A stretch of 64,000 nucleotides of DNA, taken from Promethearchaeota archaeon (GTDB taxonomy: Archaea > Asgardarchaeota > Lokiarchaeia > Sigyniarchaeales > SOKP01). The DNA is taken from contig JAUVXW010000003.1 in the NCBI GenBank assembly GCA_030603385.1, positions 1 to 64,000 of the forward strand. Reading direction: 5' to 3'. Under the pieces are notes generated by a model. The model ran no database searches and was not told the DNA's origin. It saw only the letters and a list, made by a program, of their open reading frames with translations. This document shows positions 1 to 8,375 of this stretch, piece by piece. A program made the position numbers and the translations under genes. The first letter of the stretch is position 1, and each line of letters starts with the position of its first letter.

Positions 1-249
1 ACTCGACAAGTGAGGGGAAATTTTTTAATGAACAATCTAAAACTCATAGAATGCGCCGACCTACTAGAACGGGGGATTATAATGTAAGAAAACAAAAAAG
101 GGGGTTAATTTATAATTGTTAATTCGTTTATAAAATTAACCAAAATTTCTTATCTTAGAATTCCTATTGGAATTTATTTATCCTTTTCAATTAACTTAAT
201 TTATTTTTTTTAACATAAGAAAATATAGAAATATTGAGATGATCTCTGT

Positions 250-822
250 ATGGAAATTACTATAAAACCTTTATCATCAGATATACTTGACGATTGGCTA
301 TACTTTTTTGAGGAAATTGGTTTTGCAGACAATCCTGATTGGTCGGGATGTTATTGCCGCTTTTATCACTTTGCTGGAAATATTAAGGAATGGGAAAAAC
401 AAACTAAAGAAGAAAACAGAAAAGCATCAACCGATTTGATTCGCTCAGAAGAAATGCATGGTTTTTTAGCTTATTCAGATGACAAACCTGTTGGATGGTG
501 TAATATTAATTCAAGAGAAAAGTTTGCGAAAACGTTTTATGAAGACAATTCCCCCGATTCCCAAGAAAAAAAAATAGCTGGAATTGTATGTTATTTAATT
601 GCTCATACAAATAGAAGGCAGGGTATTGCTAGAAAACTATTAAGATACGCAATTTCACATTATAAAGATAAAAAATATGATATCATTGAATCATATCCAA
701 GGATTGGAGAATTATCAGATGCACATAGTTATCGTGGTCCTATTTCACTATATAAATCTGAAGGATTCATAATCCACAAGGAGCTTGAAGATCTTTTTAT
801 AATGCGTAGATATTTAAAATAA
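250..822 (+). CDS. GNAT family N-acetyltransferase
   Basis: ORF track; acetyl-CoA binding motif RRQGIARKLL, plus CYC and VGWCN motifs. Confidence 0.85.
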   Translation: MEITIKPLSSDILDDWLYFFEEIGFADNPDWSGCYCRFYHFAGNIKEWEKQTKEENRKASTDLIRSEEMHGFLAYSDDKPVGWCNINSREKFAKTFYEDNSPDSQEKKIAGIVCYLIAHTNRRQGIARKLLRYAISHYKDKKYDIIESYPRIGELSDAHSYRGPISLYKSEGFIIHKELEDLFIMRRYLK

Positions 823-911
823 AATTGTTCTTTCTTCTTTTTTTCATAGGATTGGTTAAAAATTAAAATACATTTTCTTATAACGACCTCATTTTCAATA
901 ATAAAAAAAAA

Positions 912-961
912 TCTTGGATCTAAGGGCTCAGAAGTATATCTATGAGCCTTCTTCCAAGACA
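912..961 (+). ncRNA. GC-richer intergenic stem-loop (candidate structured RNA)
   Basis: TCTTGGA 912-918 pairs with TCCAAGA 953-959; GGCTCA 925-930 pairs with TGAGCC 943-948; ACA at 959-961. Confidence 0.25.
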
Positions 962-1112
962 TCGCAATTTTGTCGATCGGATGAAATTATTAACCGAAAC
1001 ATATATTATCGAAAATCTACCGTAATCCTTATATATTTGAAATAAGTATTATAACTTAAAGAAGTTTTTTGTTAAAATAAAATACCTATTATAAATTTTA
1101 AAATTAATTTGT

Positions 1113-1117
1113 GGAGG
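1113..1117 (+). promoter_or_regulatory. Shine-Dalgarno site of the histone gene
   Basis: GGAGG 8 nt upstream of ATG 1126. Confidence 0.75.
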
Positions 1118-1125
1118 AATAAAAA

Positions 1126-1368
1126 ATGGCAAAGAAAGTTTTTGCTTGGAGTCCAGTTCGAAAGTTGATGAAGGATAATGGTGCTGAAATGGTTGCTCGA
1201 GATGCAGTTGATGCCTTAATTGATTATTTAGAAAAATTAGCTAGAGGCATGACCAATAAAGCTCTTGAGATGACGCGCCATGCGGGTCGGAAGAATTTTT
1301 AAAACATCTCGATTTAAAACTTTATACTGACCCTTGGGGATATGGACTTGGCAATGACAATATTATAA
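1126..1368 (+). CDS. Archaeal histone (HMf-like), split: join(1126..1295,1326..1368), 70 aa MAKKVFAWSPVRKLMKDNGAEMVARDAVDALIDYLEKLARGMTNKALEMTRHAGRKKLTLGDMDLAMTIL
   Basis: Manual translation. Histone-fold motifs PVRKLMK, GAEMVARDAV and HAGRK; helix 3 (LTLGDMDLAM) continues in the same frame after a 30-nt insert carrying two TAA stops. Not in ORF track because the unspliced ORF is only 58 aa. Confidence 0.92.
1296..1325 (+). other. Putative 30-nt bulge-helix-bulge (tRNA-endonuclease type) mRNA intron in the histone gene
   Basis: GGGUCG-GAAG-[AA^U]-UUUUAAA-loop-UUUAAAA-CUUU-[AU^A]-CUGACCC: 4-bp central helix, two 3-nt bulges on opposite strands, 7-bp inner helix, exon-exon outer helix; canonical cuts restore the reading frame. 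Confidence 0.82.
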
Positions 1369-1404
1369 AAAATTTTAAGACTAATTAATTTCGAATTTTA
1401 AATC

Positions 1405-1420
1405 TTTTTTTTATTTTTTT
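1405..1420 (+). terminator. Oligo-T tract terminator after the histone gene
   Basis: TTTTTTTTATTTTTTT about 37 nt downstream of stop 1368. Confidence 0.5.
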
Positions 1421-1501
1421 CTATACTCCTACTTTAACTGGATTTTTCTTGCTTAAACTCTATTCAAAAATTTTATAATTTCCTAAAATTTATTTTGTTT
1501 T

Positions 1502-2323
1502 ATGAAAGCAAAGAAATCTGAAGGAGAGGTTGTTAAAGATACACAGTCTCCTAACACTATAACTACATTAAAACGTGATTTTAAAACACTTGGTATTACT
1601 GCGGGATCAGTAATTATAATGCATAGTTCTTTAGGTGAAATAGGTTGGACAGTTGGCGGTCCTGTTTCTGTAATACAGGCTTTAATGGAAACCCTTACTT
1701 CAAATGGCACATTAATAATGCCAACTTTTTCTTCTGATAACACAGATCCAACTGAATGGGAAAACCCACCAGTACCTGAAAGATGGTGGAACATCATTAA
1801 AGATGAAATGCCTGCTTATCAACCAGAAATAACACCTACACGCGAAATGGGAATGATCATAGAAAGTTTTAGAAAATGGCCTAATGTTATGCGTAGTAAT
1901 CATCCTTCTTTATCTTTTGCTGCTTGGGGCAAATTTGCGAAATTTATAATAAAAGATCATAAATTAACGTCAGGCTTAGGTGAACATTCTCCTCTCGCCC
2001 GGATTTATGATTTGGATGGAAAAATCTTATTGGTAGGTGTTAATCATTATAACAATACGTCCTTGCATCTGGCAGAATATCGAAGTGATTTCTCTGGTAA
2101 AAAACATATTAAGAATGGATCTGCGATGATGATAAATAAGAAAAGACAATGGGTAGAATATGAAGATCTAGACCATAATAGTGATGATTTCGAACAGCTT
2201 GGAATAAATTTTGAATCAGAAATCAACTATACATCAGGTAAAATTGGCATAGCAGAAGTTCGATTAATCTCACAACGAGAAATTGTTGATTTTGCTATAG
2301 ATTGGTTTAAGAAAAACCGCTAA
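1502..2323 (+). CDS. AAC(3)/YokD family N-acetyltransferase
   Basis: Motifs IMHSSL, GTLIMPTFS, RSNHPSLSFAAWG, NTSLHLAE. Confidence 0.9.
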   Translation: MKAKKSEGEVVKDTQSPNTITTLKRDFKTLGITAGSVIIMHSSLGEIGWTVGGPVSVIQALMETLTSNGTLIMPTFSSDNTDPTEWENPPVPERWWNIIKDEMPAYQPEITPTREMGMIIESFRKWPNVMRSNHPSLSFAAWGKFAKFIIKDHKLTSGLGEHSPLARIYDLDGKILLVGVNHYNNTSLHLAEYRSDFSGKKHIKNGSAMMINKKRQWVEYEDLDHNSDDFEQLGINFESEINYTSGKIGIAEVRLISQREIVDFAIDWFKKNR

Positions 2324-2442
2324 TTTTTATAATAATATCTTATAATCAGGTTAAATTTGAAGAGAAAAACTTTAATCTTATCTTTCAATTAAACAATTAA
2401 ACTGATTGTTTGAATTTAAAAATATATTCTGGTTGATTAAAA

Positions 2443-3015
2443 TTGACTGAAGGAGAAAATGATGGTGTTTTTCCTTTTATAGAGGGAGAAATCATTGATT
2501 TAGTTGCTACAAACTCTAAATGGGCTAATCTTATAGGCCGATGGATGAATGATCCAGAAGTACGTCAATATTCTCGAAATGCATGGCCCCTTACAATCGA
2601 GGAAATCAAGAAATGGTTTGAACCTTCTTCCGATGATAGTTTGAAGGATTTTGTTGTGTTTACAATTTATCATAAAAAAGATAAACGTCCAATTGGAAGT
2701 GTTGGGTTTAATCATATAAATTGGTTAAACCGCAATGCAAATGTTTTTGGGTCAATCGGGGAGAAGGAATATTGGGGCAGAGAAATAATAGTTGAGGCAT
2801 CAAAATTATTGATTAAATATGGATTTACAGAATTAAATCTTCATAAAATATATGCTGGTGTCTTTACTCCAAATAAACGCTCACTTCGAGCAGCTGAAAA
2901 AATAGGATTTAAAAAAGAAGCTGTATTGAAAGAAGAAGTATACGTTGATGGAGAATATGTAGATGCTCATAAATTTGCTCTATTGAAGAAAGATTGGATG
3001 GAAGAGAATAAATAA
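2443..3015 (+). CDS. GNAT acetyltransferase, RimJ/RimL family
   Basis: YWGR, YGFTELNLHKIYA, NKRSLRAAEKIGFKKE. Confidence 0.88.
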   Translation: MTEGENDGVFPFIEGEIIDLVATNSKWANLIGRWMNDPEVRQYSRNAWPLTIEEIKKWFEPSSDDSLKDFVVFTIYHKKDKRPIGSVGFNHINWLNRNANVFGSIGEKEYWGREIIVEASKLLIKYGFTELNLHKIYAGVFTPNKRSLRAAEKIGFKKEAVLKEEVYVDGEYVDAHKFALLKKDWMEENK

Positions 3016-8300: not shown

Positions 8301-8375
8301 CAGGCCCGGGGGGAATTGAACCCCCGATCTTCAGCTTAGGAGGCTGCCGCCCTATCCAGACTAGGCCACGGGCCT
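8301..8375 (-). tRNA. tRNA-Arg (anticodon CCT), intronless, CCA not encoded
   Basis: Cloverleaf: acceptor AGGCCCG/CGGGCCT plus discriminator G, anticodon loop CT-CCT-AA, T-arm GGGGG-TTCAATT-CCCCC. Confidence 0.95.

What the first reader, a model, noticed from the sequence alone, without database searches (positions are those of the whole stretch)
1126..1368. Asgard histone gene interrupted by a 30-nt bulge-helix-bulge (tRNA-type) mRNA intron
Seen in sequence: a histone ORF with an SD site stops at HAGRKNF* (TAA 1300-1302). The missing helix 3 (LTLGDMDLAMTIL*) resumes in the same frame at 1327, beyond a second TAA at 1315. The mRNA folds as follows: outer exon-exon helix G1284-C1288 with G1329-C1333 plus G1289-C1327 (U1328 bulged); 4-bp central helix GAAG 1290-1293 with CUUU 1320-1323 (one G-U); 3-nt bulges AAU 1294-1296 and AUA 1324-1326 on opposite strands; 7-bp inner helix UUUUAAA/UUUAAAA closing a 9-nt loop. 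Established knowledge: the archaeal splicing endonuclease EndA cuts BHB motifs after the second nt of each bulge and RtcB ligates the exons; the well-known archaeal protein-gene case is crenarchaeal cbf5. Applying that rule excises exactly 1296-1325 and gives AAG AAA CTG, i.e. HAGRKKLTLGD. This restores the histone-fold R-x6-D salt-bridge spacing (R55/D62) in a 70-aa histone, and the ligated exons leave a 7-nt loop like an anticodon arm. Codons flanking the site are unusually GC-rich for this genome (GCG GGT CGG / CTG ACC), consistent with selection on RNA structure. Inference: protein-coding mRNA splicing by the tRNA machinery in an Asgard chromatin gene, which standard gene callers would miss. 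I am not aware of a described case in a histone gene.
Basis: partly seen in the sequence, partly recalled or inferred. Interest (0 to 1): 0.96.

Follow-up and report, generated by a model that had tools for sequence, protein, structure and literature searches.

The report
Spliced tRNA-type mini-intron in Asgard histone
A histone gene of an Asgard (Promethearchaeota) archaeon is split by a 30-base insert shaped like a tRNA intron, and comparison with relatives indicates it is cut out of the mRNA by the tRNA-splicing enzymes, a kind of splicing that the papers I could search confirm for only one other archaeal coding sequence (cbf5).

Summary
The histone ORF stops at TAA 1300-1302. Helix 3 resumes in frame at 1327. 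[quoted passage not shown]

Cutting after the second base of each bulge gives a 70-aa histone. An intronless allele on a 97-99% identical metagenome contig (L195) encodes exactly this protein, and about 100 intronless orthologues match it closely.

- **Same intron elsewhere:** four other Promethearchaeota MAGs carry a 30-nt intron at this site. Four base pairs show compensatory changes, and the exons have dN/dS of 0.03-0.10.
- **Exon-exon helix:** it has 4-6 Watson-Crick pairs in intron-bearing genes, against about 2 in 76 intronless ones.
- **Other histone introns:** about 20 further 30-nt BHB introns sit at about 8 sites in histone paralogues of the genus, two of them in a second histone of this genome.
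- **Enzymes:** two EndA subunit genes and RtcB are present.
- **RNA evidence:** one metatranscriptome contig from a relative is joined exactly at 1295|1326. This is suggestive, not proof.

Verdict: a real EndA/RtcB-type mRNA intron (confidence 0.88). The library I searched holds no paper on histone or Asgard mRNA BHB introns. This scan has already noted the same class in many Asgard genomes, including this one.

The parts
1113..1117 (+). Shine-Dalgarno GGAGG, 8 nt upstream of the ATG
   Evidence: Read directly.
1126..1295 (+). Exon 1: histone-fold helices 1 and 2 and loop 2, up to HAGRK plus the first two bases (AA) of codon 57
   Evidence: PF00808, 35 bits, profile positions 6-54 of 65. It is 90-97% identical to about 100 orthologues.
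1284..1289 (+). 5' strand of the outer (exon-exon) helix, GGGUCG
   Evidence: Pairs with 1327 and 1329-1333. Two of its six pairs show compensatory double changes among five orthologous introns. It has 6 Watson-Crick pairs here against about 2.2 on average in 76 intronless genes.
1290..1293 (+). 5' strand of the 4-bp central BHB helix (GAAG, exonic)
   Evidence: Pairs with 1320-1323. It is 100% paired in all five orthologous introns.
1294..1296 (+). 5' bulge AAU; predicted cut between 1295 and 1296
   Evidence: The geometry is read directly. The cut site agrees with the indel boundary against the intronless allele L195.
1296..1325 (+). 30-nt BHB intron with in-frame TAA codons at 1300 and 1315; inner hairpin 1297-1319 (7 bp, 9-nt loop)
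   Evidence: It is absent as a clean 30-nt indel from the conspecific contig L195. Homologous 30-nt introns sit at the same site in L139, L123, L171 and L175. It is single-copy in this genome.
1320..1323 (+). 3' strand of the central helix (CUUU, intronic)
1324..1326 (+). 3' bulge AUA; predicted cut between 1325 and 1326
   Evidence: RNA contig X4 begins its match at 1326, directly preceded by an exon-1 end. The indel boundary against L195 agrees.
1326..1368 (+). Exon 2: third base of codon 57, then helix 3 (LTLGDMDLAMTIL) and stop TAA 1366-1368. Bases 1327-1333 form the 3' strand of the outer helix.
   Evidence: The intronless orthologue aligns without gaps to HPhA/HMfB through this segment. 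Conserved residues L58, T59, D62, M63, L65, A66 and M67 are kept in all five intron-bearing genes.
1405..1420 (+). T-rich tract (T8-A-T7) downstream of exon 2; likely transcription terminator
   Evidence: Read directly. This is inference. No such tract follows the premature stop at 1300.

Best explanation
Bases 1296-1325 are a bulge-helix-bulge intron in the pre-mRNA of an archaeal histone. Both exons are transcribed together. The end of exon 1 pairs with the 3' end of the intron (the 4-bp central helix) and with the start of exon 2 (the outer helix), while the intron's own 23-nt hairpin forms the inner helix.

The heteromeric (alpha-beta)2-type splicing endonuclease EndA then cuts after the second base of each 3-nt bulge. 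RtcB joins AAGAA to ACUG, which creates codon AAA (K57) and a 70-aa histone with an intact helix 3.

- **Shown here:** the structure, the precise boundaries, the conservation with covariation, the purifying selection on both exons, and the presence of the enzyme genes.
- **Inferred:** that EndA and RtcB are the enzymes acting, and that splicing happens in this strain.
For: 1. **Exact product.** The spliced protein is identical to the one encoded by an intronless allele on contig L195. That contig is 97.4-99.4% identical to window 142-2582 and differs by a clean 30-nt indel at 1296-1325.

2. **Intronless orthologues.** About 45 genus orthologues and 73 more distant ones are intronless and read HAGRKKLT.... 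The orthologue aligns gap-free to HPhA/HMfB.

3. **Same-site introns.** Thirty-nt introns at this site occur in four other Promethearchaeota MAGs from different studies. Of all cells, 87% are paired, against 26-62% when the partners are slid. The central helix is 100% paired, and four pairs show compensatory double changes, two of them between synonymous exon positions across the intron.

4. **Outer helix.** Watson-Crick pairs number 6, 6, 4, 6 and 5 in intron-bearing genes, against a mean of about 2.2 (maximum 5) in 76 distinct intronless genes. Four of the five CDS differences from the conspecific intronless allele fall in the 9 nt after the junction.

5. **Selection.** dN/dS between intron-bearing genes is 0.03-0.10 at dS of 0.65 or more. 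The introns of L123, L171 and L175 differ by only 1-2 nt.

6. **Generality.** About 20 histone-gene inserts at about 8 sites in the genus are each exactly 30 nt. For each, a BHB scan blind to the protein picks the cut that restores the residue seen in intronless orthologues, for example K-H-N and T-R-N in this genome's second histone.

7. **Enzymes.** Two EndA paralogues of about 200 aa and one RtcB are present. Asgard EndA is reported as the broad-specificity (alpha-beta)2 type (PMC5829648).

8. **RNA.** Metatranscriptome contig X4 joins ...GCGGGTCGAAAGAA directly to 1326 ACTGACCC.... That exon-2 signature was found only in intron-bearing genomes.
Against: There are no RNA reads from this strain. 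The two other RNA contigs (X1, X2) end before the junction.

The X4 contig comes from a relative, which has a different C-terminus. Intronless alleles exist in nature (L195, L190-L194, L165), so X4 could in principle be a transcript of an intron-lost gene, or DNA carried over into an RNA library.

Within the 54 species of the genus only this genome has the intron at this site, and a conspecific strain lacks it. The copy here could therefore be young.

The minimum-free-energy fold prefers a register that breaks one central pair. The covariation rests on five sequences in roughly two clades.
Confidence: 0.88

Rival explanations
1. The gene is a pseudogene. A 30-nt insertion (replication slippage or a mobile-element footprint) inactivated it in this strain, and only the 58-aa fragment, or nothing, is made.
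For: A conspecific contig lacks the insert. The genome has three intact histone genes that could cover the loss. Only this species of 54 in the genus has the insert at this site.
Against: The same-site insert persists in four other species at saturated synonymous divergence, with both exons under strong purifying selection (dN/dS 0.03-0.10) and exon 2 still open.

The helices covary. The flanking synonymous codons are adapted to pair. The insert is single-copy rather than a repeat. About 20 inserts in histone genes are all exactly 30 nt with BHB geometry.
Confidence: 0.05
2. Translational bypassing. The ribosome hops over the 30 nt, as in phage T4 gene 60 or the 'byp' inserts of Magnusiomyces mitochondria, so no RNA splicing is needed.
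For: It is a short insert carrying stop codons, inside a hairpin, within a conserved coding sequence, and the total length is a multiple of 3. The resemblance to bypass elements rests on my own knowledge and was not tested.
Against: There is no matching take-off and landing codon pair 30 nt apart: AAG/AAU at 1291-1296 against UUU/AUA at 1321-1326.

The junctions fall in all three codon phases across the histone introns. Covariation follows BHB pairs, including the intron-exon central helix. An RNA contig lacks the 30 nt.
Confidence: 0.02
3. It is a genuine BHB intron, but splicing is partial or regulated. The unspliced message then gives a helix-3-less 58-aa histone fragment with a role of its own, and the intron acts as a switch rather than a passive passenger.
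For: A stop codon follows the 5' cut site within two codons in all five same-site introns. Histone genes seem to be preferred hosts, with about 8 sites. The introns are far more conserved than synonymous sites.
Against: No data on isoform ratios exist. Stop codons are expected by chance in AT-rich 30-mers. A histone fold without helix 3 is unlikely to dimerise; that is inference from the HMfB alignment.
Confidence: 0.05

Closest known systems
BHB intron in the cbf5 (pseudouridine synthase) pre-mRNA of Crenarchaeota (Watanabe 2002; Yoshinari 2006; Yokobori 2009, PMC2738675)
   Same: It is a BHB intron inside an archaeal protein-coding sequence. It is cut between the second and third bulge residues. 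It is linked to a hetero-oligomeric EndA. Its distribution is patchy, with gains and losses, and gene callers mis-annotate it.
   Different: The phylum differs (Promethearchaeota/Asgard rather than Crenarchaeota) and so does the gene (a histone). Here there are many sites in one small gene family, up to two introns per 70-aa gene, a uniform 30-nt length, and presence/absence polymorphism within a species. cbf5 splicing was confirmed by cDNA; here it was not.
Canonical archaeal tRNA and rRNA BHB introns (EndA cleavage, RtcB ligation)
   Same: The hBHBh' geometry is the same: 3-nt bulges on opposite strands, each 3' of its strand of a 4-bp helix. The enzymes are encoded in the genome.
   Different: The host RNA is an mRNA. 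The outer helix is built from codons and is maintained by synonymous substitutions.
BHB intron in the 5' UTR of Haloferax volcanii HVO_1309 (PMC7714728)
   Same: It is an mRNA substrate of the archaeal splicing endonuclease, shown in vitro and by circular-RNA sequencing.
   Different: That intron is 46 nt long and lies in an untranslated leader. This one interrupts the reading frame, so splicing is required to make the protein.
IRE1/RtcB unconventional splicing of XBP1 and HAC1 mRNA in eukaryotes
   Same: It works in a similar way: a short (26-nt in XBP1) intron is cut out of an mRNA at stem-loop structures by a non-spliceosomal endonuclease, and a tRNA ligase joins the ends, changing the protein's C-terminus. 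This rests on my own knowledge.
   Different: The endonuclease (IRE1) is unrelated and recognises a different motif, and the process is stress-regulated. There is no evidence of regulation here.
Translational bypass elements (T4 gene 60; mitochondrial 'byps')
   Same: They are short stop-containing inserts within conserved coding sequences.
   Different: They need matching take-off and landing codons and act at the ribosome. Those features are absent here (see the rival explanations).

Membership tests
Archaeal BHB (EndA-type) intron | Two 3-nt bulges on opposite strands separated by a 4-bp helix, each bulge 3' of its central-helix strand | tested here: met
   Bulges at 1294-1296 and 1324-1326; central helix 1290-1293/1320-1323 (one G-U pair). 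The central helix is 100% paired in five orthologous introns.
Archaeal BHB (EndA-type) intron | Flanking helices h (exon-exon) and h' (intron hairpin) | tested here: met
   The outer helix has 6 bp with one bulged U. The inner helix has 7 bp. Compensatory changes occur in both.
Archaeal BHB (EndA-type) intron | Cutting after the second bulge nucleotide yields the functional mature RNA | tested here: met
   The product equals the protein of intronless allele L195 and fits about 100 orthologues. The same rule holds for about 20 other histone introns.
Archaeal BHB (EndA-type) intron | Splicing endonuclease and RtcB ligase encoded by the organism | tested here: met
   Two EndA paralogues match TIGR00324, one like the N-terminal/beta half and one like the C-terminal/alpha half. 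One RtcB scores 558 bits.
Archaeal BHB (EndA-type) intron | Intron absent from mature RNA, and an excised (often circular) intron detectable | tested here: inconclusive
   One metatranscriptome contig (X4) from a relative is joined exactly at 1295|1326. No RNA from this strain covers the site, and the excised intron was not examined.
Archaeal BHB (EndA-type) intron | Cleavage by EndA in vitro | not testable with these tools
   This needs recombinant EndA alpha and beta subunits and a 1270-1350 transcript.
Archaeal histone (HMf family, Pfam PF00808) | Complete histone fold (helix 1, loop 1, helix 2, loop 2, helix 3) with the R-x6-D pair in loop 2 and helix 3 | tested here: met
   Exon 1 alone covers profile positions 6-54 of 65. 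After removal of the 30 nt the sequence has R55/D62. The identical-length orthologue aligns gap-free to HPhA residues 10-68.

The most novel reading that the evidence does not exclude
Histone genes of Promethearchaeota are preferred hosts of a uniformly 30-nt class of BHB introns. These introns move between alleles, paralogues and sites together with short flanking conversion tracts. Because each places a stop just after the 5' cut, splicing by the tRNA machinery would gate how much full-length histone is made, giving post-transcriptional control of chromatin proteins in the closest archaeal relatives of eukaryotes.
Probability: 0.12. Interest if true: 0.9.

Novelty: new member of a known kind. 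Interest (0 to 1): 0.8.

Why it matters
In the papers I could search, endonuclease-dependent splicing of an archaeal coding sequence is confirmed only for cbf5 in Crenarchaeota. A 2020 paper (PMC7714728) still calls cbf5 the only example besides its own 5' UTR case.

Here a chromatin gene of an Asgard archaeon needs such splicing. Its gene family carries these introns at about eight sites, up to two per 70-codon gene.

- **Annotation:** gene callers truncate or split these genes. The public record of this contig holds the 58-aa fragment, so Asgard proteomes and histone inventories are undercounted.
- **Biology:** the tRNA-splicing machinery would have a routine role in mRNA maturation in the closest archaeal relatives of eukaryotes.
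- **A testable case:** intron-bearing and intronless alleles occur in near-identical genomic backgrounds and are told apart by four synonymous bases. This is a natural experiment for testing splicing and for studying how such introns are gained or lost.

Tried and rejected
- **Ab initio genome scan.** I scanned for BHB geometry plus restoration of an open frame (L = 30, then 16-60) and compared it with a mirror-image BHB control. There was no excess over the control, so this scanner cannot give a census. It says nothing for or against other introns. A homology-based census is needed.
- **Scanner hits in the window.** The few hits apart from the histone were not convincing and were not pursued.
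- **MoxR check.** A PF07726 search of the genome, meant to test another note's split MoxR gene, showed no match with internal stops. That claim remains untested.
- **RNA contigs X1 and X2.** They cover only 1097-1283 and stop before the junction, so they are uninformative.
- **Run shares.** Shares of 0.04-0.08 of the words were not used for any claim about habitat.
- **Repeat or MITE origin.** blastn-short finds no second copy of any of this genome's three histone introns.
- **Shared loop motif.** The CUCGAUU loop shared by the window intron and intron A of the second histone was considered a sign of common origin. I could not distinguish it from chance.
- **Tree of spliced coding sequences** (210 nt). 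Intron-bearing genes are scattered among intronless ones, but resolution is too low to count gains and losses.
- **Literature.** Six searches found no paper on BHB introns in histone genes or in Asgard mRNAs. The 2026 preprint on Asgard tRNA introns does not treat mRNAs.

Full report
**1. The observation**

GGAGG at 1113-1117 precedes ATG 1126. The ORF of 58 codons ends at TAA 1300-1302, and a second in-frame TAA lies at 1315-1317. From CTG 1327 the same frame reads LTLGDMDLAMTIL and then a stop at 1366-1368.

Exon 1 matches the archaeal histone family PF00808 (35 bits), but only up to profile position 54 of 65, so helix 3 is missing.

The thermodynamic fold of 1276-1341 (-17.8 kcal/mol, z = -2.7) finds the inner 7-bp stem and the outer helix. 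It shifts one register (G1290-C1327) at the cost of one central pair.

With the cut sites fixed, 8.5e-5 of shuffled inserts give a 4/4 central helix plus a 7-bp inner stem.

**2. The insert is real DNA and a discrete 30-nt unit**

A contig of an independent run (X8, kind not recorded, a 98% identical strain) spans 1146-1500. It has six substitutions, none between 1257 and 1357, so the insert is there unchanged.

An exact-sequence look-up of the predicted 70-aa spliced protein found it in the public collection (P0005). It is encoded on a 2.8-kb metagenome scaffold (L195) that carries the same neighbouring genes. L195 is 97.4% identical to window 142-1295 and 99.4% identical to window 1336-2582. 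It differs by a clean absence of 1296-1325.

So the BHB rule (cut after the second base of each bulge) predicts exactly the protein made by an intronless allele of the same species. The public annotation of this contig holds only the 58-aa fragment (P0004).

**3. Orthologues**

In 54 species of the genus, about 45 carry an intronless 70-aa orthologue that reads ...HAGRKKLTL.D.... Only this genome has an insert at this site. One other genome (G022) has a different 30-nt insert in the same gene, between ARD and AVD.

A wider scan of species genomes returned 80 loci titled Promethearchaeota or other Asgard names, which settles the organism. Of these, 73 are intronless. Four (L139, L123, L171, L175) carry a 30-nt insert at exactly this site.

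The intronless orthologue aligns without a gap to the solved histones HPhA and HMfB through helix 3.

**4. Structure is conserved and covaries**

- 87% of cells are paired, against 26-62% when the partners are slid.
- The central helix is paired in every sequence.
- Four pairs show changes on both sides: two in the inner stem and two in the outer helix.

One of the outer-helix pairs links the first base of the Arg55 codon with the third base of the Leu58 codon: C-G here and in L139, A-U in the other three. That is covariation between two synonymous exon positions across the intron.

The number of independent events is small, because the five sequences form about two clades.

**5. The exons are adapted to the intron**

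The six outer-helix positions form 6, 6, 4, 6 and 5 Watson-Crick pairs in the five intron-bearing genes. In 76 distinct intronless orthologues they form 1-3 pairs in 72 cases, 4 in three and 5 in one. The exception, L165, is a candidate recent intron loss.

Against the conspecific intronless allele, four of the five coding differences lie within the 9 nt after the junction: CTG ACC CTT here, TTG ACT TTA there. The same pattern holds between L139 and five intronless contigs that encode its spliced protein.

It also suggests that gain or loss goes with a short conversion tract.

**6. It is not a decaying gene**

Between intron-bearing orthologues dN/dS is 0.03-0.10 at dS of 0.65 to saturation. 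Exon 2 keeps L58, T59, D62, M63, L65, A66 and M67 and its usual stop.

The introns of L123, L171 and L175 differ by only 1-2 of 30 bases at that divergence. The insert is single-copy in the genome.

**7. The histone family is full of such introns**

A family search of this genome found a second interrupted histone on contig C36. It has two 30-nt inserts (L005 1523-1552 and 1683-1712).

A BHB scan blind to the protein picks cuts that give K-H-N and T-R-N. These are exactly the residues of intronless orthologues (RRLMKHNGA, KKITRND). The naive in-frame deletion would give K-N-N and T-K-N instead.

Two other species share both introns. Their few substitutions sit in the terminal loop or a bulge, or turn pairs into G-U.

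Further 30-nt BHB introns occur at other sites in paralogues of G007, G020, G041, G069, G067 and G024. At one shared site the central helix is CACG/CGUG in this genome and UACG/CGUA in G007.

In all I delimited about 20 introns at about 8 sites, in all three codon phases, and every one is exactly 30 nt. I cannot explain the uniform length.

**8. Machinery**

The genome encodes two EndA paralogues of about 200 aa. One resembles the N-terminal (beta-like) half and one the C-terminal catalytic half of fused enzymes. It also encodes one RtcB. This fits the (alpha-beta)2 EndA with broad specificity reported for Asgard archaea (PMC5829648).

ARAGORN finds only 18 tRNA genes, 7 of them with introns, in this 94%-complete genome. 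That is in line with heavily interrupted Asgard tRNA genes (preprint 10.64898/2026.10.13.758758).

**9. RNA evidence**

No RNA run holds this strain. I laid four runs on the locus.

- Two RNA contigs of relatives stop before the junction.
- One 157-nt contig from a sediment metatranscriptome (X4) matches 1326-1357, and directly before 1326 it reads ...GCGGGTCGAAAGAA. This is an exon-1 end joined exactly at the predicted 1295|1326.

The C-terminus of the X4 contig differs, so it comes from a relative. Its exon-2 start, ACTGACCC, occurs only in the intron-bearing genomes (this one and L139) among more than 100 orthologues.

This is suggestive of splicing but not proof. Intronless alleles exist, and RNA libraries can contain DNA.

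**10. Rivals**

- **Pseudogene:** contradicted by sections 4-7.
- **Translational bypass:** there are no matching take-off and landing codons, the junctions fall in all phases, and covariation follows BHB pairs.
- **Assembly artefact:** excluded by X8 and by four other MAGs.
- **Regulated or partial splicing giving a truncated isoform:** not excluded.

**11. Comparison with what is known**

The closest case is the cbf5 pre-mRNA intron of Crenarchaeota. PMC2738675 states that splicing was not confirmed for any other archaeal protein gene. PMC7714728 (2020) still names cbf5 as the only other example besides its own 5' UTR intron.

Six full-text searches found nothing on histone or Asgard mRNA BHB introns.

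This scan's own notebook already holds many such notes on Asgard genomes, including the two-intron histone of this genome. Some follow-ups there report spliced RNA reads. I re-derived the two-intron histone independently but did not test the others.

**12. Verdict**

This is a genuine BHB intron in a histone mRNA. It is a new member (new gene, new phylum) of a kind known from cbf5. Confidence is 0.88. The missing piece is RNA from this strain.

Noticed in passing
G000 contig C36:120995-121270 (L005 1471-1748): A second histone gene of this genome carries two 30-nt BHB introns (L005 1523-1552 and 1683-1712). Both are shared with two other species (G069, G019), and other species have intronless orthologues.
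   Followed up: yes
L066, L067, L068, L071, L091, L093, L105, L106 (genus relatives): Histone paralogues of the genus carry BHB introns at about 8 different sites and in all codon phases. Every one delimited (about 20) is exactly 30 nt. The uniform length is unexplained.
   Followed up: partly
L195 (ENA scaffold) against window 142-2582: There is presence/absence polymorphism of the intron within about 98% identical genomic backgrounds. Four synonymous differences cluster in the 9 nt after the junction. This looks like a short conversion tract linked to intron gain or loss.
   Followed up: partly
L165 (Promethearchaeota AMARA_1S contig): This intronless orthologue still has the helix-forming exon codons (GCG GGT CGG ... 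TTG ACC C). It is a candidate for recent precise intron loss.
   Followed up: no
whole genome G000: ARAGORN finds only 18 tRNA genes (7 with introns) in a 94%-complete 3.9-Mb genome. Most tRNA genes are probably hidden by non-canonical or multiple introns.
   Followed up: no
window 250-3015: The histone gene sits among three acetyltransferase genes: GNAT at 250-822, an Antibiotic_NAT/AAC(3)-like gene at 1502-2323, and GNAT at 2443-3015. The GNAT, histone, NAT order is kept on contig L195.
   Followed up: no
window 8301-8375 (-): tRNA-Arg(CCU) is the only tRNA that ARAGORN finds in the 64-kb window.
   Followed up: no
window about 29438 (-): A weak hit of my BHB-plus-frame scanner (37-40 nt) lies between two open frames (...CGDFRNEYRT / ALEFLDNPELVEK...). 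It cannot be told from the scanner's high background.
   Followed up: no
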